From a virus, in IMG/VR virus record IMGVR_UViG_3300045988_180880, positions 64,001 through 128,000 of that record: a stretch of DNA of 64,000 nucleotides; one strand, 5' to 3'. Positions within the stretch are counted from its first letter, which is position 1. Each line of letters begins with the position of its first letter. The position numbers and the translations under genes are program-made. Positions 2,557 through 46,156 of this stretch are shown here, piece after piece. Under the pieces are notes generated by a model. That model was not told the origin of the DNA. It worked only from the letters and a program-made list of their open reading frames with translations, and did no database searches.

Positions 2557-3669
2557 ATGGAAGACGATTATTTGTTAGATGAAGAAGAAGAAGACCTAGA
2601 AAATCAAGGATATCTAGGTCCAGACGAAACAGGAGATGATTCTGACGACGATGACTCTGAAGGTTCTGATGAGAGTATTATTGGAGATGACGAGGATGAG
2701 AAGAAAATTAAAGTAGATGAGTCTCAGTATGAAGGTAAGATGACTAAGGACGAACTTTGGTTATCTACAGCATACGATGACATAATAGCAGCAGGAAAAT
2801 TGGATAAAGATAATGCAATTGAAGATGCTGTTACTACTATAGTTTGGGCTAATCCTAAACATACTTCAGTTAATACAGTCGGAAATATTATTAAAGATTT
2901 GTTTCATAAGCAAGGTCACTCTCGTATGGTTAATAGCCTCTATACACCTGATACTCCTTTACGCGGAGAAGATGTTGATATAGACTTTAAAGATGAGGAT
3001 GACTCTGGATTTAATAAGAGATATGCTGAAGAAGCGAGAAACCAAATAGCAAGATTCATAGAATTTTTGGCTACTCGTGATATTAGCAAAGACTCTATTA
3101 TATCAAAGCGAAGAAAACAAAGACAAATTCCAGCTTTTATTATTTTCTTATTCTCTTCTGGTATGTATGACTTAATTGTTGAATGTCCTACTATGCCCGA
3201 AGAATATGCAACTCAGATAAAAGAAGCAATGAGAAAAATCCTAAAAGCTAAGTATGATATCGTCGAAGAATTAGCAAAGAAGTACGAAGAAATGGGTAGA
3301 CAGGCTGTGGCAGATCGAGTTAGAAAGTTACAGTTATCATGGTTTAATAAAGAACCAGCCGAAATTAGATCATCAGCCGAATACTCTGATCTCGAACTTA
3401 CTTATGACGACGTATTGGTTTATCGTGAATATAGATCCAGATTTACTAATACATCAAGAGCTATTACTCAAGATATTATTTCAGATATGATTGAGGTAGT
3501 TATAGATAAAGAAGCAGGAGTTTATGAAAGATTAAAAGACAAGACCAGATCAGATGCAATATCAGATGTAAAACAAGTATATAAAGATTGGTCAAAAAAT
3601 AATCCTGACGATTCTGAACTAGCTACTAAGATAATTTGGAAAGATGTCGAAGGAATGGTTAAACAGTAA
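2557..3669 (+). CDS. Hypothetical protein with poly-acidic N-terminus
   Basis: Long ORF with a D/E/S-rich first ~60 aa. It ends 17 nt upstream of the beta' start. No motif recognised. Confidence 0.6.
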   Translation: MEDDYLLDEEEEDLENQGYLGPDETGDDSDDDDSEGSDESIIGDDEDEKKIKVDESQYEGKMTKDELWLSTAYDDIIAAGKLDKDNAIEDAVTTIVWANPKHTSVNTVGNIIKDLFHKQGHSRMVNSLYTPDTPLRGEDVDIDFKDEDDSGFNKRYAEEARNQIARFIEFLATRDISKDSIISKRRKQRQIPAFIIFLFSSGMYDLIVECPTMPEEYATQIKEAMRKILKAKYDIVEELAKKYEEMGRQAVADRVRKLQLSWFNKEPAEIRSSAEYSDLELTYDDVLVYREYRSRFTNTSRAITQDIISDMIEVVIDKEAGVYERLKDKTRSDAISDVKQVYKDWSKNNPDDSELATKIIWKDVEGMVKQ

Positions 3670-3685: not shown

Positions 3686-4818
3686 ATGTCAGTATCTCTT
3701 GAGTTACTAACCGATGAAGCTATCATCGATTATACTAAAAGTGATGGAAAAGATCAAGTTCTATTTAATCATAGAGACTTGGACCTGAAGTACAATGGAA
3801 TACAACCTATCGCCGGTGGAGTCTATGATGTCGATATTTTTGGCTCACCCATGGAAGATAGATGTATTTGTGGAAAAATTCGACAACCCTCTGCTGAACC
3901 TTGTCCTCATTGCGGGGCGAGAGTATTTACAAGAGAAGAGGGATTGAGAAGATTTGCTAGAATTGAACTTCCTTTCTATTACTTGAATGATTTACGTTTT
4001 GATATCTTTAAAGAACTTTTCGAAGATATTTTTAAAGATAGTAAAATTGTATTAGATTTCTTTGGAGACGATCTTCGAAGAAATGGTTATAGTGCAAGAG
4101 GAGCGAAGAAATTAGGTATTAAAGTTTTTGATACCTGCCAGTTCGAATATAATCCAACAACAAAAGAACTAAAAATATCAGAATTTATTACTGATGAAGC
4201 TCTATGTTCTTACGAAGGATTAATTAAAATTATTGAAGAACATTTTCCCGCTCGTCTTACAGAATTTAAAAAATTAATTAATCGGTATTACCTAGTACAA
4301 CCTGCTATGATGAGACCTTTTACTCTCGGAATTAAAAACGGGAAAAAAGTAATGGGATCTCATAAACTTAGTATTTGGTACTCTATTATTATCAGACTTT
4401 GTTGCGTAGAAGATAAAAAATCTAATGACTTGAACTATGAGGAAGTTACATCTAAATTTAATACCCCTGGAGAAAGAGTTAGATATACAGCCCTTCTACG
4501 TGCTCTCCTAAATGCTGGAAAAAAAGAAGCTACAGCACTACTTAATACATCTAAAGAAAATCTAGCACGTGACTTGTATTCTGTCCGTACTAAAAATTCT
4601 GCTAGATGCCCAATTATACCTAGTACTACATTAGCTATCGATGAAATCTCTGTTCCAATACATATCGCTTATGAAATGTGTCGGGAAGGTTTCTTAGATT
4701 ACTTAATGAAAGAGCTGAATTTTACCAAAAACGAAGCACTCAAAGCAACAAAAGAAGAATATAATAATCCGGAAACTCTGAAAATGTTTAAAGAGTATGC
4801 GGAAAAACAAATCGTACT
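3686..4818 (+). CDS. rpoC: RNA polymerase beta' homologue, exon 1
   Basis: Zinc motif CICGK..CPHCG and RFARIELPFYY resemble the bacterial beta' N-terminus. The 5' splice site is set by P1 CGTACT/GGTACG with a terminal U.G. Confidence 0.85.
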
Positions 4819-4976
4819 AATGGTTTCCTAATTGGTACGTTAGGTGTGAATCCTAGAATATATAATGTGAATTATGTATTAAATTTTGTGTATTGCTGGG
4901 AGGATCTAAATATCTAATCAGCAGTTGAAGATAATTTATTTATACGAATTTATAATAATTAAAATACTAGAATATT

Positions 4977-5582
4977 ATGAAGGTACTTAGAATTAAACAC
5001 TTCTCTTCTCTAGTATCTACACAACCAATTTTTAATAGATCTGAACATATGAAGCAACTACATGCTCAAGGAAGATATCAAGGTACTTCTAAAATTGGTA
5101 TATGGAATTCTAGTGAAGAGAAGAGACAAAGAATGGCATTACTTGGAGCTAAAAATGCTTTAGATAAAAATTCTAAAGGTTATGGATCTGAGTATGCAAT
5201 GAGAGTAAATAATAGAATATTACTTGGAAATAAATTTCAAGGAGAAACTGGTTATTTATATTTTGTAAGATATCCGAAATCAATAAAAATTGGATTTTCA
5301 AAGAATTGGGAACGTAGAATTAATACCCAATTGATGAATCAATTTCAAATACTTGGTGGAAAAGTTGTAGCAATTATATCAGGACCTACCAATGAACTAG
5401 CTGATCTCGAGTTTGATACTTTTATTAAATTTCAAAAATATACTAAACTGTCTAAAGACGAAACAAGGTATACTGAATTTTTAGATGATAAAATTAGAAA
5501 AGACGTATATAACTTTTTGGATGATAAAGTAAAAAATAATAGTAATTTGAAATTTATTATACAAAATAAAATAAACCTTTGA
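4977..5582 (+). CDS. Intron-encoded T5orf172/GIY-YIG-like protein
   Basis: GYLYFVRYPKSIKIGFS...R pattern. Lies inside the intron between Q and R. Confidence 0.5.
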   Translation: MKVLRIKHFSSLVSTQPIFNRSEHMKQLHAQGRYQGTSKIGIWNSSEEKRQRMALLGAKNALDKNSKGYGSEYAMRVNNRILLGNKFQGETGYLYFVRYPKSIKIGFSKNWERRINTQLMNQFQILGGKVVAIISGPTNELADLEFDTFIKFQKYTKLSKDETRYTEFLDDKIRKDVYNFLDDKVKNNSNLKFIIQNKINL

Positions 5583-6364
5583 AATTTATGACACAAGAAG
5601 AAATTAAATACCATAATCAACTATGGTATTATAAAACATATAATCAACTTATAGATAAATGTATACAATTGGAGTCTGATGGTTATCCAGAAGATATGTA
5701 TACAGAGGTTCACCATATATTACCTAAATGTATGGGTGGAACAAATAAGGAAGATAATTTAGTAAGAATGCCTGTTAGATATCATATAATGGCTCATTTA
5801 TTACTTGTAAAAATATATCCAAATATAGGAAAAATAATATATGCAGCTAATATAATGATTGTCGGAAATAAAAATACAAGAGCTGAACGAAATCTAGCTT
5901 TAAATCAATTCTCTACAAAAACTATTAGTCAATTAAGGGAAACTATGGCAAATTATCAGAAAGGAAAACCTTTATCAGAAGAACATAAGCAGAAAATTTC
6001 TTTTGCATTAAAAGGAAAAGTACATTCTGAGGATCATAATAGAAAAGTTTCTGAATCTAAAAAAGGAAAACATTTATCAAAAGAAACGAAAGATAAGTTA
6101 AAGTTGTCCCATTTAGGTAAAAGTCTTTCTGAAAGTCATAAAAAAGCTATTGGAAACGCTCTTCGTGGAAGAAAAGGAAAACCTCTCTCTGAGGAAGTAA
6201 GAGAGAAAATTTCTAAAAATAATAAAATGTCAAAAGCTGTTCAGGATTATAATGGTGTAATTTATAATAGTATCTCTGATTGTTCTAGAAAATTAAATAT
6301 TCCAGATAGTACTATTAGTTATTGGATCAAAAAACATCCTGAAAAAGGTTTTAAATTCGTATAA
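5579..6364 (+). CDS. Intron-encoded HNH homing endonuclease
   Basis: EVHHILPKCMGGT..N..H HNH motif. Repeated SEEHKxKIS (NUMOD3-like) modules. Likely true start is the ATG at 5588. Close paralog of 13745-14629. Confidence 0.8.
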   Translation: MKFMTQEEIKYHNQLWYYKTYNQLIDKCIQLESDGYPEDMYTEVHHILPKCMGGTNKEDNLVRMPVRYHIMAHLLLVKIYPNIGKIIYAANIMIVGNKNTRAERNLALNQFSTKTISQLRETMANYQKGKPLSEEHKQKISFALKGKVHSEDHNRKVSESKKGKHLSKETKDKLKLSHLGKSLSESHKKAIGNALRGRKGKPLSEEVREKISKNNKMSKAVQDYNGVIYNSISDCSRKLNIPDSTISYWIKKHPEKGFKFV

Positions 6365-6511
6365 ATAAATTAATCACAATTCAACGACTATGGACAAAAC
6401 CAGGCTAGTGTTGTGATAACCTAGTTTTAACCATGGAAAATATAGTCTTTGCAAGATAGAATTATATCTTGGGTAATCAATATAAGTTGGCTAAAGTATT
6501 GATTATCACAG

Positions 6512-7163
6512 AGTTAATCGCCAACCCTCTTTGCACGAGTACAGTATGTTTAGCATGAAGCTCAAGCTTAATGATTCATATGCAATTGAATTTCCCATCG
6601 CTGTTTGTGAGCCTTTAAATGCTGACTTCGATGGCGATACGTGCTCCATACAACTCGTCCCTCCAGAGGCAGCAGAAGAAACATATCTTAGGATGTCGCC
6701 AAGATATGTGAATGTTTATAAGAAAAATAATGAACCTATATTTAAATTTAACCACGAAACTTTGAATGGTCTTGCAGTTGCATCAGAATACGTATTTGAT
6801 GATCAGGATGAATTAGAAAATCCTAGACACTTTTATACGGATTATGTGCAACTTCTTAAAGATGTTGAAGTAGAGAAAAAAATTAAAGTAGGTACTCCAA
6901 TTACATTCACTGGAAAAATTGGAAATGTTGAATATACCGCTAAAACAACAAGTTATGGTAGACTTCGAATTTCTAAGATTCTAGACGCAGATATGGATGA
7001 AATTGGGATTTTATCTAATAAATATGAACGTATCAGTGCTAAAGCTGCTTCGAAATTATCTTTATATCTTAATCAATTTCCTGATGGAGTTGAGAAAAGA
7101 AAAGCATTACAGAAGCTTGCCCTCAGAATTGTTACATTAGCAGGAGTAGTTACGTTTGACTAT
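6512..7163 (+). CDS. rpoC: RNA polymerase beta' exon 2 (catalytic loop)
   Basis: Contains NADFDGD. Begins NRQPSLH. Confidence 0.85.
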
Positions 7164-7350
7164 AAAATTGTAGCTTAAGAAATAAATTATCTTGAGAAAA
7201 TTCTATTAAAATGCTAGAACTATTAGAATAAAGTAGAATTAGCATCTCTATCTCTTAGATAAAATAGAGTTCAACGACTAAATATAGAACTGTATGAAGT
7301 TATATACAGATGATATAGTCTATCTAAATTAAGAAGATTTAGAATTAATG
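7164..7350 (+). mobile_element. Group I intron, type A, ORF-less
   Basis: AAATGCTAGAAC / TTAGCATC / GTTCAACGACTAA / GATATAGTCTA, then a P9 hairpin and 3' G. P1 is only 4 bp (CTAT/GTAG). Confidence 0.7.
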
Positions 7351-7464
7351 AAAACGTTATATGCTGATTGTGATACTGAGACGTATAAAAGAATATGTAA
7401 TGTTGCAGATTCAAAAGATCTTACTGATAAACAAAAACTTCTTATAATGACTGAAGAATTTCGT
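7351..7464 (+). CDS. rpoC: RNA polymerase beta' exon 3
   Basis: Open frame KTLYADCDTETYKR..TEEFR, bounded by intron cores on both sides. Confidence 0.65.
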
Positions 7465-7637
7465 TAATTATTTTTAGCGACTTAATAATTTTAATTATTA
7501 AGAAAAATAAGAGAATTGCTAGAACTATATATAAAATACTGAACTAGCATCAAGTAGTATTAACTATTTGTTCAACGACTATGTACTTATTATAAAATGA
7601 TATAGTCTACCTTTATTGATTGAATAAAGAGTTAGTG
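7465..7637 (+). mobile_element. Group I intron, type A, ORF-less
   Basis: GAATTGCTAGAAC / CTAGCATC / GTTCAACGACTAT / GATATAGTCTA. P1 TCGT/GCGA. Confidence 0.7.
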
Positions 7638-7766
7638 AAATATGAAAAAGAAGTTTCTGAAAGTTTTAGTACAGATCTTAAAAATGAATTAGCACGTGCA
7701 AATCGTGTAAAACTAAACTCGATTGTAGCAATGTCAATGCCTAAAGAAAAAATTGGGCAATATAAT
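7638..7766 (+). CDS. rpoC: RNA polymerase beta' exon 4
   Basis: Open frame KYEKEV..ANRVKLNSIVAMSMPKEKIGQYN. Confidence 0.65.
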
Positions 7767-7923
7767 GAAAATTAACTCATTATATTAAAATTATGTTAAT
7801 TGCTGGAACTGTAAGAATTATAGAATTAGCATCAAGTAAAAGCTTAAATTATTTGTTCAACGACTATATACATAATATTAAAGATATAGTCTAAACTTAT
7901 ATAAAGTAATATAAGTATCATTG
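7767..7923 (+). mobile_element. Group I intron, type A, ORF-less (about 157 nt)
   Basis: TAATTGCTGGAAC / TTAGCATC / GTTCAACGACTAT / AGATATAGTCTAA, P9 hairpin, tail ATCATTG. Confidence 0.7.
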
Positions 7924-8042
7924 CAATTTATTGTTAGTGGAGTTGATGAAAAACCTGTTATTACACGAGGAACACTTTTGTCAGGATATACAGAAAAAGA
8001 CTATCAGCTTCATTCAATCGAGAATAGATCACTACAGTCAAT
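7924..8042 (+). CDS. rpoC: RNA polymerase beta' exon 5
   Basis: QFIVSGVDEKPVITRGTLLSGYTEKDYQLHSIENRSLQS aligns with the bacterial segment ahead of the bridge helix. The 5' splice site is set by P1 AGTCAAT/GTTGACT with U.G. Confidence 0.75.
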
Positions 8043-9332
8043 TTTAGTTTACCTTTAGTTGACTATAAATTCTACTAAATGCTGGAATTCTGTGAAGAGA
8101 ATCAGCAGTTAATACAAAACTAAGTCATAAAGTTGTGAAATTATTATGGCAGGGAAATTGGAAAAATTTATATTAACAGATAAAGAAGAAATAGATTCTT
8201 TTAATAAATTAATTAGTTTAAATCCGCAACCTGGAAAATCTTTTGATAATTATTTAAAAGTTATCAATCGCGGTCATTATAAAATATGTTTATATAAATG
8301 GTTTACTGGATTAGATGAAGATATTTATGTAACTCAATCTCATTTATATAAACATTTGAATGATAATAGCAAATTTGTTAAAATAACACCTCAAATTTAT
8401 TATGATGTTATAGTATTAGGTTTGACTAATATTAATGATCGTCCTAAATGTGAAATATGTGGAAAAATATCTAGATGGGATGGATTTAAAAGAGGTTATT
8501 TAAAAACATGTTCAGAAAAGTGTTCTGAACTATTAAGAGATAGTAGAATGTCTGAACAAGGATTAAAAAATTTTCACAAATTACAGACAAAAGAGTCTAG
8601 AGAAAAGCAGAGGGAATCACATAAAGGATGGAGTCCTTCAGAAAAACAAAGAAAACAAATTTCTCAACGAATGAAAGATTTCTATAAGACACCAAAAGGA
8701 TTAGAAATGAGAAAGAATTCTAGTAGGTTATTATCTGAAAGAAATATTGAAATGATGAAAGATAAGTCTTATTATAACAAACGAACAGGAGGTAAATATA
8801 AAACAGGTATATATCATTCTAAAGTTTGGAATAAAGATTTTAATTATGATTCATCTTGGGAAATTAATTTTATAAAATTTTTTGAAAAGCAGAAATGGCA
8901 AAGTGAGATAAAAATATTTGATAGGTGTTTAGATTCTATTATTTATAAATGGGATGATGGAACTGAACATAGATATCTACCTGATTTTTACATCAAATTT
9001 AAATCAGGTCTTCAAGTTGTTATTGAGTTAAAACCAGCAAATCTAATAGAAAAAGATCCGGTGATTTTAGCCAAAAGAATAGCAGCGAAGAAATACTTTG
9101 CAAAAAGAAATATAAAATATATTATATTATCTGAAAATGAACTATTCACAACTAGATATATAAAGTATACTAAATTATCTGAAAGTTTAGGAATAGTTAA
9201 TTCATTTAATATTTATGATTACATAGTTTAATTAAGATTTAGTTTTGTATTAATTCAACGACTATATGTAGAAACTTATGTGAATAAGAAAGGTATAGTC
9301 TAAGTCTTTATGAATAAATAAAGATATCACTG
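8043..9332 (+). mobile_element. Group I intron core (type A) with endonuclease ORF; first half of a tandem insertion
   Basis: AAATGCTGGAAT (8081) / AATCAGCAG (8104) / ATTCAACGACTAT (9253) / GGTATAGTCTAA (9292), P9 hairpin, tail ATCACTG. Confidence 0.65.
8146..9231 (+). CDS. Intron-encoded PD-(D/E)xK-type endonuclease
   Basis: C-terminal PDFY..VIELKP (D..ExK). Cys-rich CEICGK..CSEKC. NUMOD-like SxxxKxKIS repeats. Confidence 0.55.
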   Translation: MAGKLEKFILTDKEEIDSFNKLISLNPQPGKSFDNYLKVINRGHYKICLYKWFTGLDEDIYVTQSHLYKHLNDNSKFVKITPQIYYDVIVLGLTNINDRPKCEICGKISRWDGFKRGYLKTCSEKCSELLRDSRMSEQGLKNFHKLQTKESREKQRESHKGWSPSEKQRKQISQRMKDFYKTPKGLEMRKNSSRLLSERNIEMMKDKSYYNKRTGGKYKTGIYHSKVWNKDFNYDSSWEINFIKFFEKQKWQSEIKIFDRCLDSIIYKWDDGTEHRYLPDFYIKFKSGLQVVIELKPANLIEKDPVILAKRIAAKKYFAKRNIKYIILSENELFTTRYIKYTKLSESLGIVNSFNIYDYIV

Positions 9333-9388
9333 AAAAGTTAGTGGAGTTAGAAATAAAACCTGAACTTTATGGTAGCCCACTATAAATA
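9333..9388 (+). pseudogene. Decayed duplicate of the 5' end of beta' exon 5 (pseudo-exon)
   Basis: AAAGTTAGTGGAGTTAGAAATAAAACCTG resembles TTGTTAGTGGAGTTGATGAAAAACCTG at 7931, with a 1-nt indel. A stop is met in the frame set by exon 5. Confidence 0.5.
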
Positions 9389-9780
9389 ACAAAGAAATGC
9401 TGGAAATAATAATAGACAGACGAAGTCAAAGTTTTTTAAAATCAGCAACTTATCAACGAGAAAAAGATGAATTATTAGTACTTTTTAAAACTTAATGTGT
9501 AGATTTGAAAAATTCTTAGAAACTCTAAGGCTTGTTGGAAGTATAGCAAGAACTATACTCTCTGGAATTGAAGAATATAGAAAAATTCAAGAAACAAAAG
9601 CTTATCGAGAGAATAAGAAAAATAATGTAAAATATCTACCAAGACCAAAAAGGTATAATAGTAGAAGAAAACAAAGATAAGATCAACGACTATGTATTGT
9701 TAGATTAAGGAAACTCTTTAATCATGATATAGTCTAATCTTACGTGAATAAGCGTAAGCAGGATAAGAGATTAGAAGACG
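9389..9780 (+). mobile_element. Group I intron core (type A); second half of the tandem insertion
   Basis: AAATGCTGGAAAT (9395) / AAATCAGCAAC (9439) / GATCAACGACTAT (9681) / GATATAGTCTAA (9726), P9 hairpin. No convincing P1 of its own. Confidence 0.55.
9495..9680 (+). CDS. Small basic ORF inside intron core
   Basis: 61-aa ORF with a K/R-rich C-terminus. No endonuclease motif. Confidence 0.3.
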   Translation: MCRFEKFLETLRLVGSIARTILSGIEEYRKIQETKAYRENKKNNVKYLPRPKRYNSRRKQR

Positions 9781-10106
9781 TCTTTTAAAAATTATAATAT
9801 CTAATCTCTTTGAATGGCCTAGTTCAGGATATTTAACACGACAAATTTCATTCCTTTTAAATAGTTTTATATATCATGAAGGAGAAGATCCAGAAAACAC
9901 AGGATTACTCATTCCACGATATAAAGCATTAGGAAGAACAGCACCGAACGGAAAGGTATACCCAGACAAACCAATAGTAAATGGTTCTGAGGATGATCTT
10001 GTTCCAGTACGTTCGATTGTTACAAAAAGAACTGGAGATTTAAGCACAATTACACCAGACCTGATTGGAAAGAAATTTAGTTTTACTGATGGAGCAGCAA
10101 TAGGAT
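9781..10106 (+). CDS. rpoC: RNA polymerase beta' exon 6 (bridge helix region)
   Basis: SSGYLTRQ matches bacterial NSGYLTRR. The frame is open only from 9767. The track lists no ORF here because there is no start codon. Confidence 0.75.
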
Positions 10107-10353
10107 AAGTTTAGAATTGTCCATAAAAGTTTGTTATAGACTTTTATTAAACTTCAAGAATTGCTGGGAGTATTATCGCTATTTATTCTTCGCCTTGTAA
10201 AATAAAAAACTTAAGGCGAAAATTATATAGCGAGAGATAATCAGCAAAAGATATAGAAAATATATCTTCTTAACGACTATGTGTGAAGGAGAGATTAAAA
10301 CACTCTTAAGATATAGTCTAGTAATCTATATAAAGTTTGTATAGGTTTAATCG
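10107..10353 (+). mobile_element. Group I intron, type A, ORF-less
   Basis: GAATTGCTGGGAG / TAATCAGCA / CTTAACGACTAT / AGATATAGTCTA. The junction gives GAAIG-L-SFATS. Confidence 0.7.
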
Positions 10354-10400
10354 TATCATTTGCTACATCATTAACTGAAGGTACTACTCAATTAAAATTG
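10354..10400 (+). CDS. rpoC: RNA polymerase beta' exon 7 (trigger-loop base); 3' end approximate
   Basis: SFATSLTEGTTQLK matches bacterial AAQSIGEPGTQLT. The 3' boundary is uncertain by about 10 nt. Confidence 0.6.
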
Positions 10401-10573
10401 GTTGCTATATAAAATAGTATTATATAGAAAATCTTTGTAAAATGCTGGAAATTAAAAAAAAATAATCAGCATCAAGGAATATATTAATAACTTGTTCAAC
10501 GACTATAAAAAAAGATCTTATTAATTTAAGAATGGTATAGTCTAAATTCATTCTAAAAGGATGAATAATCTTG
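10401..10573 (+). mobile_element. Group I intron, type A, ORF-less (boundaries approximate)
   Basis: AAATGCTGGAAAT / TAATCAGCATC / GTTCAACGACTAT / GGTATAGTCTAA, then a P9 hairpin. Confidence 0.65.
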
Positions 10574-10602
10574 CAGCATTAGGTCTGAAACATGGTGGCC
10601 AT
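10574..10602 (+). CDS. rpoC: RNA polymerase beta' exon 8 (about 29 nt)
   Basis: Encodes ALGLKHGGH (bacterial RTFHIGG). The 3' end is set by P1 GCCAT/GTGGC with U.G. Confidence 0.65.
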
Positions 10603-10762
10603 AGATTATATTTGTGGCGTATAATTTCAATAATTGCTGGAAATATTTGTAATAAAATAAATCAGCAGGGGAAAATAAAATCCCTTCAACGACTATAAAT
10701 GAAACTAGATGAATTTCTGGATGATATAGTCTAACTTATAAATTATATTATAAGAGTAATTG
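10603..10762 (+). mobile_element. Group I intron, type A, ORF-less (about 160 nt)
   Basis: TAATTGCTGGAAAT / AAATCAGCAGG / CTTCAACGACTAT / GATATAGTCTAA, 3' G at 10762. Confidence 0.75.
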
Positions 10763-11002
10763 GAACGTGTGCTTAATACAGAAGGAAATCTTAAAGCACC
10801 AAAACAATGTGAGTTTAGAGAGGAAGGCAGATGGATTTACCTAAAAGTTAGAGGAGGAGAATTAAAATATCCGAGACCTAATAATTGGGTAGGAGTAGGT
10901 AAGACAAAATTTGAGAAAGGTGACTTAATAGGGTCAGCTTATAATACTACCTCGCCTATTTACAAGTTGAACGCTCTCATAAAACTTATGCGTGCCAAAG
11001 GT
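10763..11002 (+). CDS. rpoC: RNA polymerase beta' exon 9
   Basis: Open frame ERVLNTEGN..MRAKG. Ends in AAAGGT, the type B insertion site. Confidence 0.7.
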
Positions 11003-11195
11003 GAATATAAAATTGCCGTCTAAGGAAGTAATTCTCTAGATAATTAGTAAGTAAATTTGGTGAAGCTAGTAACTAGTAATACCAAGCCTTGGATTAATAA
11101 TTAGAATCTTAAGGTATAACGAATAAAGACTTACCAACTTTTTTATAAGTTGAATTTATATTCTAAACTATAATAAGAAAATTATAGATAAATTG
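11003..11195 (+). mobile_element. Group I intron, type B, ORF-less
   Basis: GCCG guide, P2 hairpin, AGTAAGTAAATTTGGTGAAG / AATACCAAG / TATAACGAATAAAGACTTACC / AATTTATATTCT, terminal hairpin, tail ATAAATTG. Confidence 0.7.
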
Positions 11196-11804
11196 AGTGA
11201 TGGCACAAGATATTTTGAGAAGGATAATGTTATTGTATCTGATTGTTATGCTTTGAATGATGGGGTTATTCATTACAAAGAGACCAAGGAAGGTGATACT
11301 GAAGTTTGGATTGGTGATACTCAGTATGACTATAATCCAGAGTGTATGTATTATTTTCCTGATGGTACAGAGATTAAGAAATTTCAAAGAATTTCCAGCG
11401 GAGTTTGCAATATGAATCATGTTATTGCAGAGTTGGGTTCTAATATTAATGATATTTACTTAATCTTTAGAAAACAATTTTATACTTTAACAGATGGAGG
11501 ATTTGTATCAACTGGTTTATCAGATCTTCATGCTACACAGGAAGAACTTATTGAACTTTTATTCACAGGTTTAACTGATGTAGGTGTAGATCCAGAAACA
11601 CAGAAGATTGAAGACATCCAATATCTAGGTACTCAAAGTGGTGTTTTAAATAAGAAGTCATTCTATACTGTTTTGTCTTACGGTTATAGCTCTAGAGTTG
11701 TGTCTAAAGCTCTCAAAGGGGAATTAAATCTTTCTGGTGACGTAATGACAGAAACTATATTAGGATTACTTTTAAATAATAAACTTGACGAAAAACAAAA
11801 GTAA
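11196..11804 (+). CDS. rpoC: RNA polymerase beta' exon 10 (C-terminal)
   Basis: Open frame SDGTRYFEKDN.. running to the stop at 11804. Confidence 0.7.
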   Translation, partial: SDGTRYFEKDNVIVSDCYALNDGVIHYKETKEGDTEVWIGDTQYDYNPECMYYFPDGTEIKKFQRISSGVCNMNHVIAELGSNINDIYLIFRKQFYTLTDGGFVSTGLSDLHATQEELIELLFTGLTDVGVDPETQKIEDIQYLGTQSGVLNKKSFYTVLSYGYSSRVVSKALKGELNLSGDVMTETILGLLLNNKLDEKQK

Positions 11805-11813
11805 AAACAAATT

Positions 11814-12092
11814 ATGGGAACTATTAAATTTGAAATAGATCTTCCAGAATTTGAAAAAGAGTTGAGTATTAATGTAACTATTCATAGAGACGGTGAGGTG
11901 GTTTATACTACTACTACCTCATCTTCCTCTGTGGATAAATCTAATAATACTAATCTTTTATCGAGCCTTGGAAGTAAACCCGAGCAAGAAAAATGTATCT
12001 CTGTGGATGGAGATAAACAAAAAGAAGAAAAACCCAAGAAAGCATCAACTACATCTCGAAGGGGAGGAAATTTGATGAACTTGGATATATGA
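11814..12092 (+). CDS. Hypothetical protein
   Basis: ORF between beta' and beta. S/T-rich and K/E-rich low complexity. Confidence 0.45.
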   Translation: MGTIKFEIDLPEFEKELSINVTIHRDGEVVYTTTTSSSSVDKSNNTNLLSSLGSKPEQEKCISVDGDKQKEEKPKKASTTSRRGGNLMNLDI

Positions 12093-12123
12093 TGATTAAA
12101 ACCAGAGAAGAGAATTTTTTGTT

Positions 12124-12474
12124 ATGAACGATAATTATTATAAAATTATACTATCATATGAAATTCCATATAACATTTTAGACAGTCAAGATCCGAATAT
12201 TATACAGGCGAGAGAAATATTATATGAAAAACTTAGAGATGATATTTTTCCGAAGTATGAAAGATTTTCGGTAAAGCTTACATTACATCAACTTAAAGAT
12301 AACTTCAATTATCTTGTTACTTATGAAGCTTTTTTTAGATCTCTTGATGGTAAACCTATGGGAGAATATGTAGAGGCTCGTAGCTTAAAAGATAGTATTA
12401 AATCAGAATTAGAAACATTTTTTAATTCAGTAGATTGCGAATATAAGCAATTAAATATAAAACCATTAGTATAA
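12124..12474 (+). CDS. Hypothetical protein
   Basis: ORF whose stop overlaps the beta start (TAATG). Confidence 0.55.
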   Translation: MNDNYYKIILSYEIPYNILDSQDPNIIQAREILYEKLRDDIFPKYERFSVKLTLHQLKDNFNYLVTYEAFFRSLDGKPMGEYVEARSLKDSIKSELETFFNSVDCEYKQLNIKPLV

Positions 12475-13336
12475 TGAGTAATTTTAATCAATATTTCAGA
12501 AACACTGGAGCAAAAATTATAGTAGATCGATTTTTTAATAAAGTTGATGCATATAATCCTAAAGTAAAAGTTGGAAAAATTGGATATTCATTTATAGAAG
12601 AACCTCCTCAACCAGCTTCTTACTATATTGAAAATGGATTAACTGCTACACATAAAGTAAGAATTGAATATACAACTATAACGGATGGGAAAGAAGATCC
12701 TGAAATGAAGTATGCAGAGTTCGAAGTTCCTAAAGAAATTGATGGTGCATTTATTATAGAAGGCGCTTATCGTATTTCAACTAATCGAATGGGATCTGAT
12801 TATGACTGTCGTATTAAAATGTCTGGTACAGGAGATTATAAAGTTAATTTCGACTATGATAGAGTTTACGATATTCAAAAACAGATTCTGAAGATAAAAA
12901 GAATTAATCCGGAACTTGGAATTGCAGATAAACCAATTGATATAAAGTTTGAAGACATTGATAAATACTTGGAAACTGATAAAAAGGAGATCTTGAAGTT
13001 AACTGAAAGACAAACCAAGAAATTAATGATCAAACTTGACTTGGATTATAAACCTGAATATATTACACAAAAACTAATACAGGAATGTTTGGCCTTTGGA
13101 GATGATAGACTAAAAGACTTAATCATTGATAAAACATTAGAATCAGTTCCTAACAGTTTTATGCAATATATTTTTAGGAATAATAATGGACGTAACTATT
13201 TTGCAGCTAGACGAAGAATTACATCATATTTTACAAAGTATGGTAAAATTCAAGATCAAGTTACTGCAATTAGTACTTTGTGTTTTAGATTTTTTAAAGG
13301 AAGTAGCGATAACAAAGGAGATTCAGGAGTACAGGT
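12474..13336 (+). CDS. rpoB: RNA polymerase beta homologue, exon 1
   Basis: DGAFIIEGAYRISTNRM resembles bacterial GTFVINGTERVIVSQL. Ends in CAGGT ahead of the type B guide GCCG. Confidence 0.8.
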
Positions 13337-13557
13337 ACAAAATATAAAGGTGCCGTTTTATGGAGAAATCTATAAAATTATTAGTAAGTAAATTCGGTGA
13401 AGGGTAAAACCTAATACCGAACTAAGGATAATGAAAATTTTTAGTGTAACGAATAAAGACTTACTAACTTATAATTAAAATATAAGTTAAATTTATATTC
13501 TGTTCTATATAAGTAGAACTTTATTTATATAGTTAACAATAAAGCCCCCCTGGAGTA
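13337..13557 (+). mobile_element. Group I intron, type B (3' boundary unresolved)
   Basis: GCCG, P2 hairpin, AGTAAGTAAATTCGGTGAAG / AATACCGAAC / GTGTAACGAATAAAGACTTACT / AAATTTATATTCT, terminal hairpin ending at 13531. Confidence 0.6.
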
Positions 13558-13641
13558 AATTCCATTAACTTAGAGGCAATCTCCCAAAAAATTGTTATTC
13601 CTGCGAGTGTAGCCTTTAATTCGACTTTTACAGATTTAGAT
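13558..13641 (+). CDS. rpoB: RNA polymerase beta exon 2 (5' end approximate)
   Basis: The only open frame is ISINLEAISQKIVIPASVAFNSTFTDLD. The 3' end is set by P1 TTAGAT/GTCTGA. Confidence 0.5.
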
Positions 13642-14763
13642 TAAGTCTGATTATAGAATATTTTTTATAATAAAAACTTTGAGAATTGCTAGAAAACTAG
13701 TGATAGTTAATTAGCAGTATAAAATAAGTATAATTATTTATGCGTTGAGAGGAAAAATTTTTGAAAGGAATTTAAGAATGACGCATGTAAAAGAAATTAA
13801 ATACCACAATCAATTATGGTATTATAAAACGTACAATCAGTTAATAGATAAGTGTATACAGATGGAGTCTGAAGGTTATCCTGAAGATATGTATACAGAG
13901 GTTCACCACATACTACCTAAATGTATGGGTGGGACAAATGATGAGTCTAACTTAGTAAGAATGCCAGTTAGGTATCATATAATGGCACATTTATTGTTAG
14001 CACAAGTATATCCAGAAATAAATGGATTAGTTTATGCAGCACATGTTCTAGTCTCAGTGAATAATTCAGTTGTATCTACGAATACAGCTGCATTAATTAG
14101 AGAAGATTTTAAAAAGTCTAGAATAGGATCTCATCATTCAGAAGAGACAAGGAGAAAAATTTCTGAATCTAACAAAGGAAAAGTTATCCCTAGAGAACTA
14201 GTAGAGAAGTTAAGATCTATTAATTTAGGGAAGAAACATTCACTTGAAACGAGAAAGAAGATGTCAGAAGCTAGAAAAAGAGAGAATTTATCCGAGGAAA
14301 CACTAAGAAAAAGATCTCTAGCGTCCTCTGGAAGAAAACATTCTGAAGAAGTCAAGAAGAAGATTTCTATAGCTAATACTGGAAAAATTTTTAGCGAAGA
14401 ACACAGACAAAACATATCTAAAAGTAAGATGGGAAAAGGACATCCACATACTGAAAAAACAAAGAAAATGATGTCTGATACTAGCGTTAAGAGAAAAAGA
14501 GTTCAAGGCCCTGATGGAATAATTTACGAATCTATGAAACTTTGTTGTGAGAAATTTAATATTCATAGAGATACCCTTCGAAGCTGGATTAAAAATCACC
14601 CAGAAAAAGGCTTTAAATTTATTGATTAAAAAATTTATCATTACTATAAATTCCTTTCAATGTAATGAAATTTAATACTTATTTTATATTCAACGACTAT
14701 GTACAAAGAGGGAAATTCCTTAAGATATAGTCTAGTGATAAAGTAAAAAACTTTATCTATTCG
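13642..14763 (+). mobile_element. Group I intron, type A, with HNH ORF
   Basis: GAATTGCTAGAAA / TTAGCAG / ATTCAACGACTAT (14690) / AGATATAGTCTA, P9 hairpin, tail TATTCG. Confidence 0.8.
13745..14629 (+). CDS. Intron-encoded HNH homing endonuclease
   Basis: EVHHILPKCMGGTN and repeated SEETRxKIS modules. C-terminal WIKNHPEKGFKF. Likely start is the ATG at 13778. Confidence 0.8.
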   Translation: MRGKIFERNLRMTHVKEIKYHNQLWYYKTYNQLIDKCIQMESEGYPEDMYTEVHHILPKCMGGTNDESNLVRMPVRYHIMAHLLLAQVYPEINGLVYAAHVLVSVNNSVVSTNTAALIREDFKKSRIGSHHSEETRRKISESNKGKVIPRELVEKLRSINLGKKHSLETRKKMSEARKRENLSEETLRKRSLASSGRKHSEEVKKKISIANTGKIFSEEHRQNISKSKMGKGHPHTEKTKKMMSDTSVKRKRVQGPDGIIYESMKLCCEKFNIHRDTLRSWIKNHPEKGFKFID

Positions 14764-18645: not shown

Positions 18646-18833
18646 AAATTATTGAGGCTAGTATCAATACAAACTGATACTAGAAAATATCTTAAATTGC
18701 TGGAACAAAGTAGAAAATCAGCATCAAGCTGTTGTTTTATAATTAACAGCTTGTTCAACGACTATAGTAGATACTAAAGAATACTTATTTTAGATAATAT
18801 AGTCTTACTTTAAATAAAATTAAAGATGAATAG
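18646..18833 (+). mobile_element. Group I intron, type A, ORF-less
   Basis: AAATTGCTGGAAC / AAATCAGCATC / GTTCAACGACTAT / TAATATAGTCTTA, P9 hairpin, tail ATGAATAG. P1 CCTT/GAGG. Confidence 0.7.
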
Positions 18834-18862: not shown

Positions 18863-19046
18863 AAACTATTTGCGGTTTTAAATTATATTAAAATGCTAGA
18901 ATATTTATAATAAATATATTAGCAAAATATCTTACCTTAGATTATATCTAAGAAAAAGATATTCTCAACGACTAAATATATAACTAAGTTTGAAATATAA
19001 TTTAGATGATATAGTCTGAACATAGATTAATAATAATCTAGTAACG
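18863..19046 (+). mobile_element. Group I intron, type A, ORF-less
   Basis: AAATGCTAGAAT / TTAGCAA / CTCAACGACTAA / GATATAGTCTGA, P9 hairpin, tail GTAACG. Confidence 0.7.
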
Positions 19047-19053
19047 TAATTGA
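19047..19053 (+). CDS. rpoB: RNA polymerase beta terminal exon (7 nt: 4 coding nt plus stop)
   Basis: GT + T AAT TGA gives ..TVN-stop. All three frames close within a few codons after the intron. Confidence 0.5.
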
Positions 19054-36605: not shown

Positions 36606-37163
36606 TTAAGGTCTATTAAATGGAGTTGGTCCAGAAACAGTCTGTCGTATATTAATATTGTTTCCTTGTTGTAGCCCACTTCCATGTTTGTATATACTCT
36701 GTTGAGCTTGATTATATTGAATATTATAGTTATTAATCATTAAATCTATATCTGCCTCAGAAAAACATCTTTTCTCTTGAATCATTCTTATATCGTCATA
36801 TACTTTCTTTGGTAAACTTCTAAATCTACCATTCTGAAGTCTTATATTATAATCAATTATATTTGTTTCTCCACGTCGATTTTTCGTAATTGTTGATATT
36901 CCTAGGTTGTTAGGGTTGGGTTTCTCACCACCCTTAGAGCGTGTTATAATAAAATCTACCACATCAACCTTATGGCTAGACCCAGCTATATAAGACATAT
37001 CTAATACTTCTTGACTATATGCTCCAATTTTTAACTGAGACAATATAAATACTAACTTTCCCATTGCAGTTAACTCTGTAAGCTTATCATAAATATCTCC
37101 GAAAGATTTATACATAGATCCATCCTCTCCACCGTGAGCGTTTTTAAATCCCGCATCATACAT
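36606..37163 (-). CDS. DnaB-like replicative helicase, exon 3
   Basis: YDAGFKNAHGGEDGS..KLVFILSQL. The junction LFID-YDAG resembles DnaB MIDYLQLM. Confidence 0.7.
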   Translation of the reverse strand: MYDAGFKNAHGGEDGSMYKSFGDIYDKLTELTAMGKLVFILSQLKIGAYSQEVLDMSYIAGSSHKVDVVDFIITRSKGGEKPNPNNLGISTITKNRRGETNIIDYNIRLQNGRFRSLPKKVYDDIRMIQEKRCFSEADIDLMINNYNIQYNQAQQSIYKHGSGLQQGNNINIRQTVSGPTPFNRP

Positions 37164-37336
37164 TACTAAATTTAATATGGTATTAAATTATTAGACTATA
37201 TCATCTATTTTTCATAGTTATACATTTAGTCGTTGAACAAGTAACTAATATTCCTTGATGCTGATTTATGTCTTACATTTTCCAGCATTTTAGTATAATT
37301 TTCTTAAATTTTATTATTTAAGCGACTAAGCAATTA
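37164..37336 (-). mobile_element. Group I intron, type A, ORF-less
   Basis: The - strand reads AAATGCTGGAAAA / AAATCAGCATC / GTTCAACGACTAA / GATATAGTCTAA. P1 CGAT/GTCG. Coordinates may be off by 1-2 nt. Confidence 0.7.
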
Positions 37337-37549
37337 ATCGATAAACAGGATTTTATAATCTTTGGTTTTCATGAATTCTATATATTTATCTACTGAAATT
37401 TTTCCAGCTGGTAGTATAGTTATACTAAGATTATCTCCAATCATTTGACACATACTATTGTATATAGGTCCTATGTTTTGAGATACTTCATTAAATGACA
37501 ATCCTGTAAATTGAGCTCCTAATCTGATAATCATTATAAATTTAATTTT
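37337..37549 (-). CDS. DnaB-like helicase, exon 2
   Basis: KIKFIMIIRLGAQFTGLS..KILFID. Confidence 0.65.
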
Positions 37550-37714
37550 CATTAAACTATTAGACTATATCATCTATATTTTTATAGTTCTATATTTAGT
37601 CGTTGAACTCTATCTCTTAGATAAAAGATAGAGATGCTAATTCTATTTTATTCTAATAGTTCTAGCATTTTAATAGAATTTTCATAGATTCTTATATCTA
37701 TGCTTCATTCGTTT
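37550..37714 (-). mobile_element. Group I intron, type A, ORF-less
   Basis: The - strand reads AAATGCTAGAAC / TTAGCATC / GTTCAACGACTAA / GATATAGTCTAA. P1 CTTT/GAAG. P2 CATAGAT/ATCTATG. Confidence 0.7.
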
Positions 37715-45959: not shown

Positions 45960-46156
45960 CATTACTTATTTCTTTTTCAAGAAAAATTGGACTATATCAT
46001 CATCTTTTATTATCAATAAGATGTCTAGTACTTATTAGTCTCTGAACCATTCAATTCTATTGATTGATTTGGATGCTGGTTAGTATAATCTAATACTTTT
46101 CAGCAATTCTCTAGATTATTCTTGTAGTGTCTCCACTACTTGGCACAAAACGTTCT
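45960..46156 (-). mobile_element. Group I intron (canonical core), ORF-less
   Basis: The - strand reads GAATTGCTGAAAAG / AACCAGCATC / GGTTCAGAGACTAATA / GATATAGTCC. P1 GGCAT/GTGCC with U.G. Confidence 0.8.

What the first reader, a model, noticed from the sequence alone, without database searches (positions are those of the whole stretch)
7767..7923. ORF-less type A introns are unusually small (about 157-190 nt)
Seven ORF-less type A copies measure only 157-188 nt yet keep P, Q, R, S and a P9 hairpin. They start at 7164, 7465, 7767, 10603, 18646, 18863 and 37550. To my knowledge, the ~205-nt Azoarcus tRNA-Ile intron is usually cited as the smallest natural self-splicing group I intron. If these are active, they would be smaller minimal ribozymes.
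Basis: partly seen in the sequence, partly recalled or inferred. Interest (0 to 1): 0.7.

Follow-up and report, generated by a model that had tools for sequence, protein, structure and literature searches.

The report
Very small phage group I introns

Summary
The repeated element is real. It is a family of ORF-less group I introns that split the RNA polymerase beta'/beta, DnaB and ThyX genes of an AT-rich jumbo phage.

Splice sites were fixed against intron-less homologues. The ten copies measure 187, 173, 181, 181, 160, 188, 190, 176, 183 and 197 nt.

The flagged copy (7767-7923, "157 nt") is wrong. Its 5' splice site lies 24 nt upstream, so it spans 7743-7923 and is 181 nt. The smallest copy in the window is 10603-10762 (160 nt).

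Every copy has a U(-1)·G pair in P1, a terminal G, and P3, P4, P6, P7 and P9. Covariation across 54 distinct relatives supports the fold.

- Two copies lack P2.
- Two copies lack P8, which is replaced by a 5-nt linker.
- P8-less forms make up about 10% of the family.

Relatives go lower: 146 nt in a metagenomic phage, and 150 nt (no P2, no P8) inside the ADFDGD motif of cultured Staphylococcus phage Machias.

All are shorter than the 205-nt Azoarcus intron. Rfam scores them at 20 bits or less against a threshold of 50.

Small introns in such phages have been reported in passing, but this minimal architecture has not. Self-splicing remains untested.

The parts
7164..7350 (+). I1, 187-nt ORF-less group I intron in the RNAP beta' gene (P1 CUAU/GUAG; P2 7 bp; P8 6 bp)
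   Evidence: The junction FDY|KTLY is collinear with 12 intron-less homologues and with L001. Segmentation was checked by script. CM R2 scores 56 bits. Rfam RF00028 scores 19.9 bits.
7465..7637 (+). I2, 173-nt intron with no P8. P3' (7586-7591) is joined to J8/7 (7597-7602) by the 5-nt linker AUAAA. P1 is UCGU/GCGA and P2 is 9 bp.
   Evidence: The junction TEEFR|KYEKE is collinear with homologues. Only 21 nt separate P7 from P7'. The MFE fold recovers P1, P2, P4, P5, P6, P7 and P9, z = -3.7.
7743..7923 (+). I3, the flagged copy: 181 nt, not 157.
   Evidence: Homologues lack KEKIGQYN. The collinearity formula gives 181 nt. The empty-site allele in L025 reads ATG CCC|CAA TTT. The L062 orthologue (83% identical) keeps the fold through compensatory changes in P2 and P6 and also lacks P8.
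10393..10573 (+). I4, 181-nt intron in the beta' trigger-loop region (P1 CAAU/GUUG; P2 8 bp; P8 5 bp).
   Evidence: The exon order LSFATSLTEGTTQ | SALGLKHGGH | ERV is collinear with the contiguous L001 protein. CM R2 scores 43.7 bits.
10603..10762 (+). I5, 160 nt, the smallest copy in the window. It has no P2. P1 is GCCAU (10598-10602) with GUGGC (10614-10618). P8 is 5 bp and P9 is 7 bp.
   Evidence: The junction HGGH|ERV is collinear with L001. The MFE fold recovers P1, P4, P5, P6, P7, P8 and P9, z = -4.9. In the 94%-identical L051 orthologue, every difference lies in a loop or joining region except one G·U to A-U change in P8.
10574..10602 (+). 29-nt micro-exon (SALGLKHGGH) between I4 and I5. 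A 39-nt exon (10354-10392) lies between a 247-nt type A intron (10107-10353) and I4.
   Evidence: Collinearity with L001 residues 85-107, read directly from the sequence. These exons are too short and lack start codons, so they cannot be expressed unless the introns are spliced out.
18646..18833 (+). I6, 188-nt intron in the RNAP beta gene (P1 CCUU/GAGG; P2 9 bp; P5 almost absent)
   Evidence: The junction NQMFL|NNLLGLGLTV is collinear with the contiguous 1055-aa L001 beta protein. CM R2 scores 45.2 bits.
18863..19052 (+). I7, 190-nt intron in the beta gene with no P2 (P1 ACCGU/GCGGU)
   Evidence: The junction LTV|VDDKGFNQGG is collinear with L001 LTVTDSKGYNQGG. CM R2 gives a weak hit of 20.2 bits.
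37161..37336 (-). I8, 176-nt intron in the DnaB-like helicase gene (P1 CGAU/GUCG).
   Evidence: The 94%-identical intron-less relative P0125 reads KILFIDYDAGF without a gap. The spliced protein gives a single DnaB_C stretch.
37532..37714 (-). P1 is CUUU/GAAG, P2 is 7 bp, and L9 is GAAA.
   Evidence: The 3' splice site is supported by relatives whose gene call starts at (M)IIRLGAQ. The 5' splice site is inferred from the U·G-containing P1, frame preservation and one continuous DnaB_C alignment. No intron-less allele was found for this site.
45960..46156 (-). I10, 197-nt intron in thyX with a slightly different core (R GUUCAGAGACUA; S ...UAGUCC)
   Evidence: Splicing restores the ThyX motif RHRAFSFLQESQRY. 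The spliced protein gives one Thy1 hit, E = 4.7e-22.

Best explanation
These are genuine, currently functional group I introns stripped to a near-minimal architecture. The window comes from an AT-rich jumbo phage (about 28% GC). Its relatives sit on 270-400 kb contigs.

**Shown.**
- Each element interrupts an essential gene. The genes are the multisubunit RNA polymerase beta' and beta, a DnaB-like helicase, and ThyX.
- Removing each element exactly restores the conserved reading frame.

**Inferred mechanism.** They splice by the canonical two-step guanosine-initiated pathway.
1. The 5' exon pairs with an internal guide sequence to form a 4-6 bp P1. P1 ends in the U(-1)·G wobble that marks the 5' splice site.
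2. The invariant G-C pair at the start of P7 (GACUA/UAGUC) supplies the guanosine-binding site.
3. The P3-P7 pseudoknot and the small P4-P5-P6 stack build the active site, together with the A-rich J3/4, J4/5, J6/7 and J8/7 strands.
4. The terminal G then replaces the cofactor for exon ligation.

**Which helices are optional.**
- There are no peripheral domains.
- P2 is optional (absent in I5 and I7).
- P5 can shrink to almost nothing (I6).
- P8 can be replaced by a 2-6 nt linker (I2, I3, and about 10% of family members).

**Spread (inferred).** Presence/absence polymorphism among 95%-identical phages shows the introns are mobile. They probably move through the HNH and GIY-YIG endonucleases encoded by sister introns or by free-standing genes.

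**Open.** Whether the smallest copies fold and splice without protein help is unknown. I rate that at about even odds.
For: **Motif excess.** R and S motifs each occur 17 times against 3.6 expected.

**Exon junctions.**
- Junctions for I1-I7 are collinear with intron-less homologues.
- I8 is confirmed by the intron-less relative P0125.
- The I3 empty site is present in L025.
- The spliced ThyX and DnaB proteins each give one continuous Pfam stretch.

**Splice-site anatomy.**
- All ten copies have U(-1)·G and a terminal G.
- Each guide sequence pairs with its own exon: mean 4.5 bp against 2.4 bp for permuted exons, 0 of 5000 permutations as good.

**Covariation over 54 distinct sequences.**
- 90.7% of cells are paired, against 61.2% when shuffled (0 of 500) and 33-47% for slid partners.
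- The covariation score is 0.524 against 0.128.
- Double-sided changes occur in P1, P2, P3, P5, P6, P8 and P9.
- P7 is invariant, apart from a GACUG/CAGUC variant.

**Unbiased folding.** MFE folds recover the helices, with z = -4.9 and -3.7.

**Rfam.** The group I model aligns I1-I3 end to end, but at only 14-20 bits.

**Orthologue comparisons.** Substitutions sit in loops or are compensatory.

**P8-less class.**
- The P7-to-P7' spacing is bimodal: 18-21 nt in 22 of 219 distinct cores, against 24 nt or more in the rest.
- The 17 distinct P8-less introns found by a separate scan each keep a P3 of different sequence.

**In vivo function.**
- The 29-nt and 39-nt exons cannot be expressed without splicing.
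- The cultured phage Machias has 183-nt and 150-nt introns in its virion RNAP beta' gene. The 150-nt one lies within ADFDG|D. Removing both gives the 499-aa ORF that GenBank annotates as a 3-piece join.
- Metatranscriptomes supported splicing for 37 of 76 predicted introns in similar gut jumbo phages (PMC12880540).
Against: - There are no RNA data for this phage and no biochemical assay of any of these copies.
- Scores against the curated Rfam group I model are far below threshold (20 bits or less against 50). Nothing is reported in whole-window scans.
- The introns are 19-29% G+C. P1 is only 4-6 bp, and most L2 and L9 loops are not GNRA tetraloops. The tertiary clamps that stabilise the Azoarcus intron are therefore mostly absent.
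- P8, normally counted as part of the conserved core, is missing in I2 and I3.
- The covariation alignment was fitted to the model, and the model was built from pruned seeds. Pair counts therefore lean towards the proposed structure.
- The 5' splice site of I9 rests on inference only.
Confidence: 0.85

Rival explanations
1. They are group I introns that are spliced in vivo but are not autonomous ribozymes. The reduced scaffold (no peripheral domains, weak AT-rich helices, sometimes no P2 or P8) would need a protein or other helper to fold. Candidates are a phage-encoded maturase-like factor, one of the many intron-encoded HNH/NUMOD proteins, a host RNA chaperone, or the translating ribosome.
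For: - G+C is 19-29% and P1 is only 4-6 bp.
- GNRA loops are present in only two of ten L9 loops.
- P8, the usual receptor for L2, is missing in I2 and I3.
- Many endonuclease ORFs sit in sister introns.
- From general knowledge: many reduced mitochondrial group I introns depend on CYT-18, Mrs1 or maturases (PMC2813881).
Against: - Classical AT-rich phage introns (T4 td, nrdB and sunY; Twort) self-splice in vitro (my knowledge).
- The unbiased MFE folds already recover nearly all helices, with z down to -4.9.
- No dedicated maturase was identified.
Confidence: 0.4
2. They are decayed, inactive intron relics. On this reading the interrupted genes are pseudogenes or are expressed as separate small polypeptides.
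For: - Rfam scores are below threshold.
- Jumbo-phage RNA polymerase subunits are naturally split into several genes (bioRxiv 10.1101/2020.12.14.422802).
Against: - Exons of 29, 39, 114 and 129 nt have no start codon and carry essential motifs such as the trigger loop.
- Frames are preserved at all ten sites.
- Identical copies persist in several independent metagenomes.
- Orthologues show compensatory rather than random substitutions.
- A viable cultured phage carries a 150-nt homologue inside the catalytic ADFDGD motif.
Confidence: 0.03
3. They are small 'group I-like' ribozymes of the GIR1 lariat-capping kind, as suggested for the roughly 206-nt elements of Jug phages in PMC12880540.
For: The size range (about 160-190 nt) is similar, and the suggestion appears in the literature.
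Against: - The copies have a P1 with U·G at an exon border and a terminal G.
- They sit directly in coding sequence.
- Their removal restores the ORF.
- From my knowledge, GIR1 lies inside a larger twin-ribozyme intron, lacks a 5'-splice-site P1, and catalyses branching rather than splicing.
Confidence: 0.01
4. One reading: a 157-nt intron at 7767-7923 whose P1 is AUAUAAU/AUUAUAU and which has no P2.
For: The 7-bp complementarity is real, and U precedes position 7767.
Against: - It would leave 8 residues (KEKIGQYN) that are absent from all 12 homologues and from the empty-site allele.
- The splice-site U would pair with A, not G.
- The upstream site gives UGCCU/GGGCA with U·G, and turns the 9-bp helix into a normal P2.
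- The collinearity formula gives 181 nt.
Confidence: 0.02

Closest known systems
[quoted passage not shown]
   Same: - A natural group I intron without peripheral domains.
- The same core plan: P1-P2, P4-P6 and P3-P7-P8-P9.
- U·G at the 5' splice site and a terminal G.
- It is the usual benchmark for a compact group I intron (205 nt, PMC13168695).
   Different: - The phage introns are 8-45 nt shorter in this window, and up to 59 nt shorter in relatives (146 nt).
- They lie in protein-coding genes, not in a tRNA anticodon loop.
- They are 19-29% G+C rather than G+C-rich.
- They mostly lack the GNRA tetraloop/receptor clamps (L2-P8, L9-P5).
- Some lack P2 or P8 altogether.
- Azoarcus self-splicing is proven. 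Here it is untested.
Classical phage group I introns (T4 td/nrdB/sunY, SPO1, Staphylococcus phage Twort; mostly subgroup IA2)
   Same: - Located in phage genes for nucleotide and DNA/RNA metabolism.
- AT-rich.
- Nearly the same R and S core sequences (UUCAACGACUA ... GAUAUAGUC).
- Sister copies carry HNH or GIY-YIG homing endonuclease ORFs.
- Over half of viral group I introns are IA2 (PMC11835236).
   Different: - The classical introns are about 250-1000 nt and carry P7.1/P7.2 and other extensions (my knowledge).
- The present copies have nothing between P7, P3' and P8.
- The subgroup was not assigned here.
Introns of AR9-like Staphylococcus jumbo phages (Machias, Madawaska, MarsHill) and of gut 'Jug' jumbo phages
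   Same: - Homologous cores: I5 matches Machias, AH12 and PB50 at about 70-72% identity over 110-124 nt.
- The same target genes (RNAP subunits).
- Machias has 183-nt and 150-nt introns.
- Jug phages match in genome size (360-402 kb) and G+C (27-30%), and their introns average about 206 nt, with RNA-seq support.
   Different: - Those papers predicted exons by protein alignment or by covariance-model hits. They did not describe the RNA architecture, the sub-205-nt size as such, or the P2-less and P8-less forms.
- The Jug paper interpreted the elements as GIR1-like.
- I could not show that the window itself is a Jug phage.
Engineered mini-ribozymes (sunY 'miniribozymes', Tetrahymena deletion variants)
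   Same: They show that a group I core of about 180 nt without peripheral helices can catalyse the reaction (my knowledge: Doudna & Szostak 1989; Beaudry & Joyce 1990).
   Different: - Those are laboratory truncations, usually with reduced activity and acting in trans.
- The present elements are natural cis-splicing introns kept in essential genes.
- They also remove P8, which I do not recall being dispensable in the engineered versions.

Membership tests
Group I intron | Interrupts a gene, and exact removal restores a conserved, collinear product | tested here: met
   Nine of ten junction pairs are collinear with intron-less homologues or a conserved motif. The 5' site of I9 is inferred only.
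Group I intron | P1 formed by the 5' exon and an internal guide sequence, with U(-1)·G at the splice site | tested here: met
   Met in 10 of 10 copies. Pairing with the intron's own exon averages 4.5 bp against 2.4 bp for permuted exons, 0 of 5000. U·G is the commonest pair at that column in relatives (28 of 44).
Group I intron | Terminal (omega) G at the 3' splice site | tested here: met
   Met in 10 of 10 copies.
Group I intron | P3-P7 pseudoknot with the conserved P/Q/R/S elements and a G-C guanosine-binding pair in P7 | tested here: met
   P3 covaries: 5 of 5 pairs show double-sided changes and 92.7% of cells are paired. P7 GACUA/UAGUC is 100% paired and its G-C pair is invariant.
Group I intron | P4-P5-P6 domain | tested here: met
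   Cells paired: P4 99.7%, P6 97.2% with 4 of 4 covarying pairs, P5 84%. P5 is reduced to about 1 bp in I6.
Group I intron | P8 hairpin between P3' and J8/7 (part of the textbook conserved core) | tested here: not met
   P8 is present (4-7 bp) in eight copies. It is absent in I2 and I3, where only 20-21 nt separate P7 from P7'. This does not remove the copies from the family, because all catalytic landmarks are kept. It defines a variant.
Group I intron | Reaches the curated Rfam RF00028 gathering score (50 bits) | tested here: not met
   There is no hit in the whole-window or 14-kb scans. Scores are 19.9, 16.8 and 14.0 bits on an 821-nt slice.
Group I intron | Guanosine-dependent self-splicing in vitro | not testable with these tools
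   This needs transcription and splicing assays.
Subgroup IA2 (typical phage introns) | P7.1/P7.2 extension between P3' and P8 | tested here: not met
   P3' abuts P8 directly, with 0 nt between them, in all eight copies that have P8. The subgroup was not otherwise assigned.
GIR1 lariat-capping ribozyme | Lies inside a twin-ribozyme intron, has no exon-pairing P1, and catalyses branching rather than exon ligation | tested here: not met
   The elements lie directly in coding sequence and have P1 with U·G and a terminal G at ORF-restoring borders. The chemistry was not tested.

The most novel reading that the evidence does not exclude
Natural group I introns of 146-173 nt that lack P2 and/or the 'core' P8 hairpin are fully autonomous self-splicing ribozymes. 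That would make them the smallest natural group I ribozymes known. It would also show that P8 is dispensable for folding and catalysis.
Probability: 0.4. Interest if true: 0.8.

Novelty: new variant of a known kind. Interest (0 to 1): 0.6.

Why it matters
1. **Ribozyme structure.** If active on their own, these introns redefine the minimal natural group I ribozyme at about 146-173 nt instead of 205 nt. They would also show that helices counted as core (P8) or near-universal (P2) can be dropped. This bears on ribozyme structure, folding and RNA-world arguments.
2. **Engineering.** Compact, ORF-less introns are sought for permuted-intron circular-RNA production and for other RNA tools.
3. **Annotation.** The curated Rfam model misses them. 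Gene callers therefore shred essential phage genes into fragments and start ORFs at the intron-terminal AUG, so intron load in huge phages is under-counted.
4. **Intron density.** About 19 introns lie in this 64-kb window, by my hand tally of two families. About 16 of them are in the two RNA polymerase genes, with exons as short as 29 nt. This is an extreme case of intron load in a virus.

Tried and rejected
- **First reading of I3.** The protein alignment showed 8 extra residues, so I moved the splice site to 7742/7743.
- **Model R1.** It was built with a nested dot-bracket string that wrongly paired P3 with P7' and P7 with P3', because I overlooked the pseudoknot. I discarded it. R2 leaves P7 unpaired.
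- **Seed construction.** MAFFT on the full introns misaligned P1, P2 and P9. The model seeds are therefore pruned versions, with loops shortened and N for missing helices. This is a device for search and alignment, not data.
- **Covariance-model hit lengths.** Hits of 125-150 nt in relatives looked like even smaller introns. Most were truncated alignments:
  - L031:1506 is really 167 nt.
  - The nrdD intron of L019, L067, L040 and L083 is about 178 nt.
  - Only lengths fixed by protein collinearity are reported.
- **Database searches.**
  - Megablast and tblastn against the phage collection found nothing for the host genes.
  - Cluster names gave only 'MAG: hypothetical protein [Bacilli bacterium]'.
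- **Literature.**
  - Searches for sub-205-nt or P8-less natural group I introns found nothing relevant.
  - The AR9 genome paper and the supplementary tables of the Jug paper were not available.
- **Madawaska hit.** It is the 3' part of an endonuclease-containing terL intron, not a small intron.

Full report
**What the window is.** The 64-kb window is 25-36% G+C and is organised in long same-strand gene blocks. It encodes a multisubunit RNA polymerase (the NADFDGD motif lies in the ORF at 6531-7178), a DnaB-like helicase, ThyX, GroEL and many HNH-type endonucleases.
- It has no close match among 50,697 deposited phage genomes.
- It is 92-99.5% identical to pieces of IMG/VR contigs of 232-378 kb.
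- Homologues of its beta' subunit sit on contigs of up to 394 kb.
- It is therefore a fragment of an uncultured jumbo phage.
- Its size class, G+C content and intron richness match the gut 'Jug' phages described in Sci Adv 2026 (PMC12880540). I could not prove that it belongs to them.

- The R-like motif GTTCAACGACTA and the S-like motif GATATAGTCTA each occur 17 times against about 3.6 expected.
- They occur in the right order and spacing, preceded by P (AAUUGCUGGAA) and Q (AAUCAGCA) elements.
- Rfam reports nothing except one tRNA at its gathering thresholds, and no group I hit at E up to 10 over 14 kb.
- Only when given an 821-nt slice does RF00028 align I1, I3 and I2 end to end. The scores are 19.9, 16.8 and 14.0 bits against a threshold of 50.

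**Boundaries.** I spliced the beta' exons conceptually and searched for homologues. More than 200 proteins (55-78% identical) run straight through the junctions.
- In the alignment, junctions 1 (FDY|KTLY) and 2 (TEEFR|KYEKE) are gap-free. This confirms 7164-7350 (187 nt) and 7465-7637 (173 nt).
The 5' splice site is therefore 24 nt upstream, after AUGCCU.
  - A 95%-identical relative (L025) has the empty site ATG CCC|CAA TTT at exactly this place.
  - An indel-free collinearity formula gives 181 nt.
- The flagged element is 7743-7923, 181 nt.
- A relative whose beta gene is uninterrupted and whose beta' gene carries fewer introns (L001) fixed the remaining sites by tblastn:
  - 10393-10573 (181 nt)
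  - 10603-10762 (160 nt)
  - 18646-18833 (188 nt)
  - 18863-19052 (190 nt)
- On the minus strand:
  - 37336-37161 (176 nt) is confirmed by a 94%-identical intron-less protein.
  - 37714-37532 (183 nt) has its 3' site supported and its 5' site inferred.
  - 46156-45960 (197 nt) restores the ThyX motif RHRAFSFLQESQRY on removal.
- The true range is 160-197 nt for ten ORF-less copies.

**Anatomy.** A hand segmentation of all ten copies was verified base by base by script.
- Every copy has:
  - a 4-6 bp P1 ending in U(-1)·G;
  - J4/5 and J5/4 rich in A;
  - a 6-bp P4;
  - a P6 hairpin;
  - J6/7 of UUCAAC;
  - P7 of GACUA/UAGUC;
  - a 5-6 bp P3 that closes the pseudoknot;
  - J8/7 of AUGAUA;
  - a 6-9 bp P9;
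  - a 7-12 nt tail ending in G.
- No copy has peripheral domains.
- I5 and I7 have no P2.
- I6 has almost no P5.
- I2 and I3 have no P8. Only 20-21 nt lie between the two P7 strands. Of these, 3-4 are J7/3, 6 are P3' and 6 are J8/7, which leaves a 5-nt linker.

**Tests of the fold.**
- Each guide sequence pairs with its own 5' exon: mean 4.5 bp including U·G, against 2.4 for permuted exons, 0 of 5000.
- A core pattern scan of IMG/VR returned 89 loci, mostly from 100-400 kb phage contigs.
- A covariance model (R2) found 73 hits, 54 of them distinct. It was built from pruned seeds and leaves P7 unpaired because of the pseudoknot.
- On that alignment:
  - 90.7% of pair cells are standard pairs, against 61.2% in shuffles (0 of 500) and 33-47% when partners are slid;
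  - the covariation score is 0.524 against 0.128;
  - all pairs of P1, P2, P3, P5, P6, P8 and P9 show double-sided changes.
- The alignment is model-fitted, which inflates these numbers somewhat. Two independent checks agree with it:
  - Plain MFE folding recovers P1, P4, P5, P6, P7, P8 and P9 for I5 (z = -4.9), and P1, P2, P4, P5, P6, P7 and P9 for I2 (z = -3.7).
  - Orthologue pairs behave as selected structures. In the 94%-identical copy of I5, all nine differences fall in loops or joining regions except one G·U to A-U change in P8. The 83%-identical copy of I3 has G-C to A-U in P2 and a rebuilt but still paired P6, and it still has no P8.

**The P8-less class.**
- Among 219 distinct P7...P7' cores in the collected loci, the spacing is bimodal. 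It is 18-21 nt in 22 cores and 24 nt or more in the rest, mostly 28-53 nt.
- A separate scan found 17 distinct short-spacing introns. They keep 4-7 bp P3 helices of quite different sequence: AAGCUU, CACUU, CUCUA, UACCU, UUGUU and others. The mean is 5.6 bp against 4.45 ± 0.21 for permuted partners.
- After P3', 8-12 nt remain before P7'. Six of these are J8/7, so a hairpin cannot fit.
- These introns sit at many different sites, in beta', beta and nrdD, and in several phage lineages.
- I know of no described natural group I intron without P8, and my literature searches found none. Those searches are not exhaustive.

**How small does the family get?** Covariance-model hit lengths proved unreliable because the alignments were truncated. 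I therefore accept only lengths fixed by protein collinearity.
- 146 nt in L003 (17990-18135): the junction is STI|NRKI, P1 is UACUAU/GUAGUA, there is no P2, and P8 is 3 bp.
- 161 nt in L025: no P2 and no P8, with junction HAI|ENR.
- 167 nt in L031: no P8.
- 183 nt and 150 nt in the cultured Staphylococcus phage Machias.
  - GenBank annotates its virion RNAP beta'-N gene as a three-piece join.
  - Exons 1169-2319, 2503-2704 and 2855-3001 of locus L094 give an uninterrupted 499-aa ORF.
  - The 150-nt Machias intron lacks both P2 and P8 and lies within ADFDG|D.
  - Because this phage is viable, the intron must be removed in vivo. This is the best available evidence that the most reduced forms work.

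**Function in this window.**
- The beta' trigger-loop region is cut by three introns within 660 nt, leaving exons of 39 and 29 nt. Exons of 114 and 129 nt lie between I1, I2 and I3.
- None of these exons can be translated on its own, so splicing is required for an essential enzyme.
- Identical copies occur in several independent metagenome assemblies.
- Closely related phages differ in which sites are occupied. This is the signature of mobile but tolerated, and therefore splicing-competent, introns.

**Comparison with what is known.**
- The Azoarcus tRNA-Ile intron is 205 nt (PMC13168695). To my knowledge it is the usual 'smallest self-splicing' reference (Tanner & Cech 1996, from memory).
- All ten copies here are shorter, and verified relatives are up to 59 nt shorter.
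- Small introns in such phages are not entirely new:
  - the Jug-phage paper reports 2513 group I introns averaging about 206 nt, with RNA-seq support for 37 of 76, but reads them as GIR1-like;
  - the Staphylococcus jumbo-phage paper predicted exons by protein alignment only.
- Neither paper describes the RNA architecture.
- The GIR1 reading fails here. These elements have an exon-pairing P1, a terminal G and ORF-restoring borders.

**Verdict.**
The flagship length and two coordinates are wrong.
These are real, very small group I introns, but their activity is untested.
- I rate in vivo splicing by group I chemistry at about 0.85-0.9. I rate protein-independent self-splicing of the smallest copies at roughly 0.4-0.5.

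Noticed in passing
window 11003-11190, 13338-13545, 15142-15326 (+): A second family of short insertions (roughly 190-208 nt) splits the beta' and beta genes. It has its own conserved core: UAGUAAGUAAAUUCGGUGAA ... UAAUACCGA ... GUGUAACGAAUAAAGACUUACUAAC ... GUUAAAUUUAUAUUCU. It lacks the type A R and S motifs, and Rfam finds nothing even on a 301-nt slice. It is probably another group I subtype. Boundaries were not worked out.
   Followed up: partly
window 3686-19140 (+): Intron density is extreme. By my hand count the two RNA polymerase genes carry about 16 introns over about 15 kb. This counts type A with and without ORFs, plus type B. Exons are as short as 29 and 39 nt (10574-10602 and 10354-10392).
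   Followed up: partly
window 4819 to about 6504 (+): One type A intron appears to carry two ORFs: a GIY-YIG/T5orf172-like ORF (4977-5582) and an HNH ORF (5579-6364). Its P1 is CGUACU/GGUACG. The relative L001 has only the first ORF at this site.
   Followed up: partly
window 45441-45962, 36606-37163 (-); protein P0125: Most of these introns end in ...AAUG. ORF finders and gene callers therefore start the downstream exon at the intron's own last three bases (MRAFSF..., MYDAGF..., MIIRLG...). This is a systematic source of mis-annotated fragment genes.
   Followed up: yes
window 46147-46156 vs 45950-45959 (-): The first 10 nt of the thyX intron (AGAACGUUUU) nearly duplicate the first 10 nt of the 3' exon (AGAGCGUUUU). 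This may be a footprint of homing or co-conversion, or it may be relevant to P10. It misled my first attempt to place the splice site.
   Followed up: no
L094 (Staphylococcus phage Machias MW349128) 2705-2854: In the 150-nt intron, the nucleotide before the 5' splice site is C. It is paired with A in P1 (UGAUGGC/ACCAUCA). This gives a C·A rather than the near-universal U·G wobble.
   Followed up: partly
L094 2998 to about 3122: Directly after the annotated stop codon of the Machias beta'-N gene lies a third type A core (P3 through P9, about 125 nt). It leaves no room for a guide sequence between the putative splice site and P3. A short ORF (VQALYSLTKE*) follows. It could be a missed terminal mini-exon or an intron remnant.
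   Followed up: no
window 355-2397, 53233-55260, 55263-56294 (+): Two paralogous proteins of about 680 aa share long identical stretches. A third ORF shares their C-terminal roughly 150 residues. This indicates a duplicated gene family at both ends of the window.
   Followed up: no
window 57902-58369 and 50590-51102 (-): Long ORFs of low-complexity, hydrophobic translation lie antisense to coding regions. They are probably spurious products of AT-rich sequence rather than genes.
   Followed up: no
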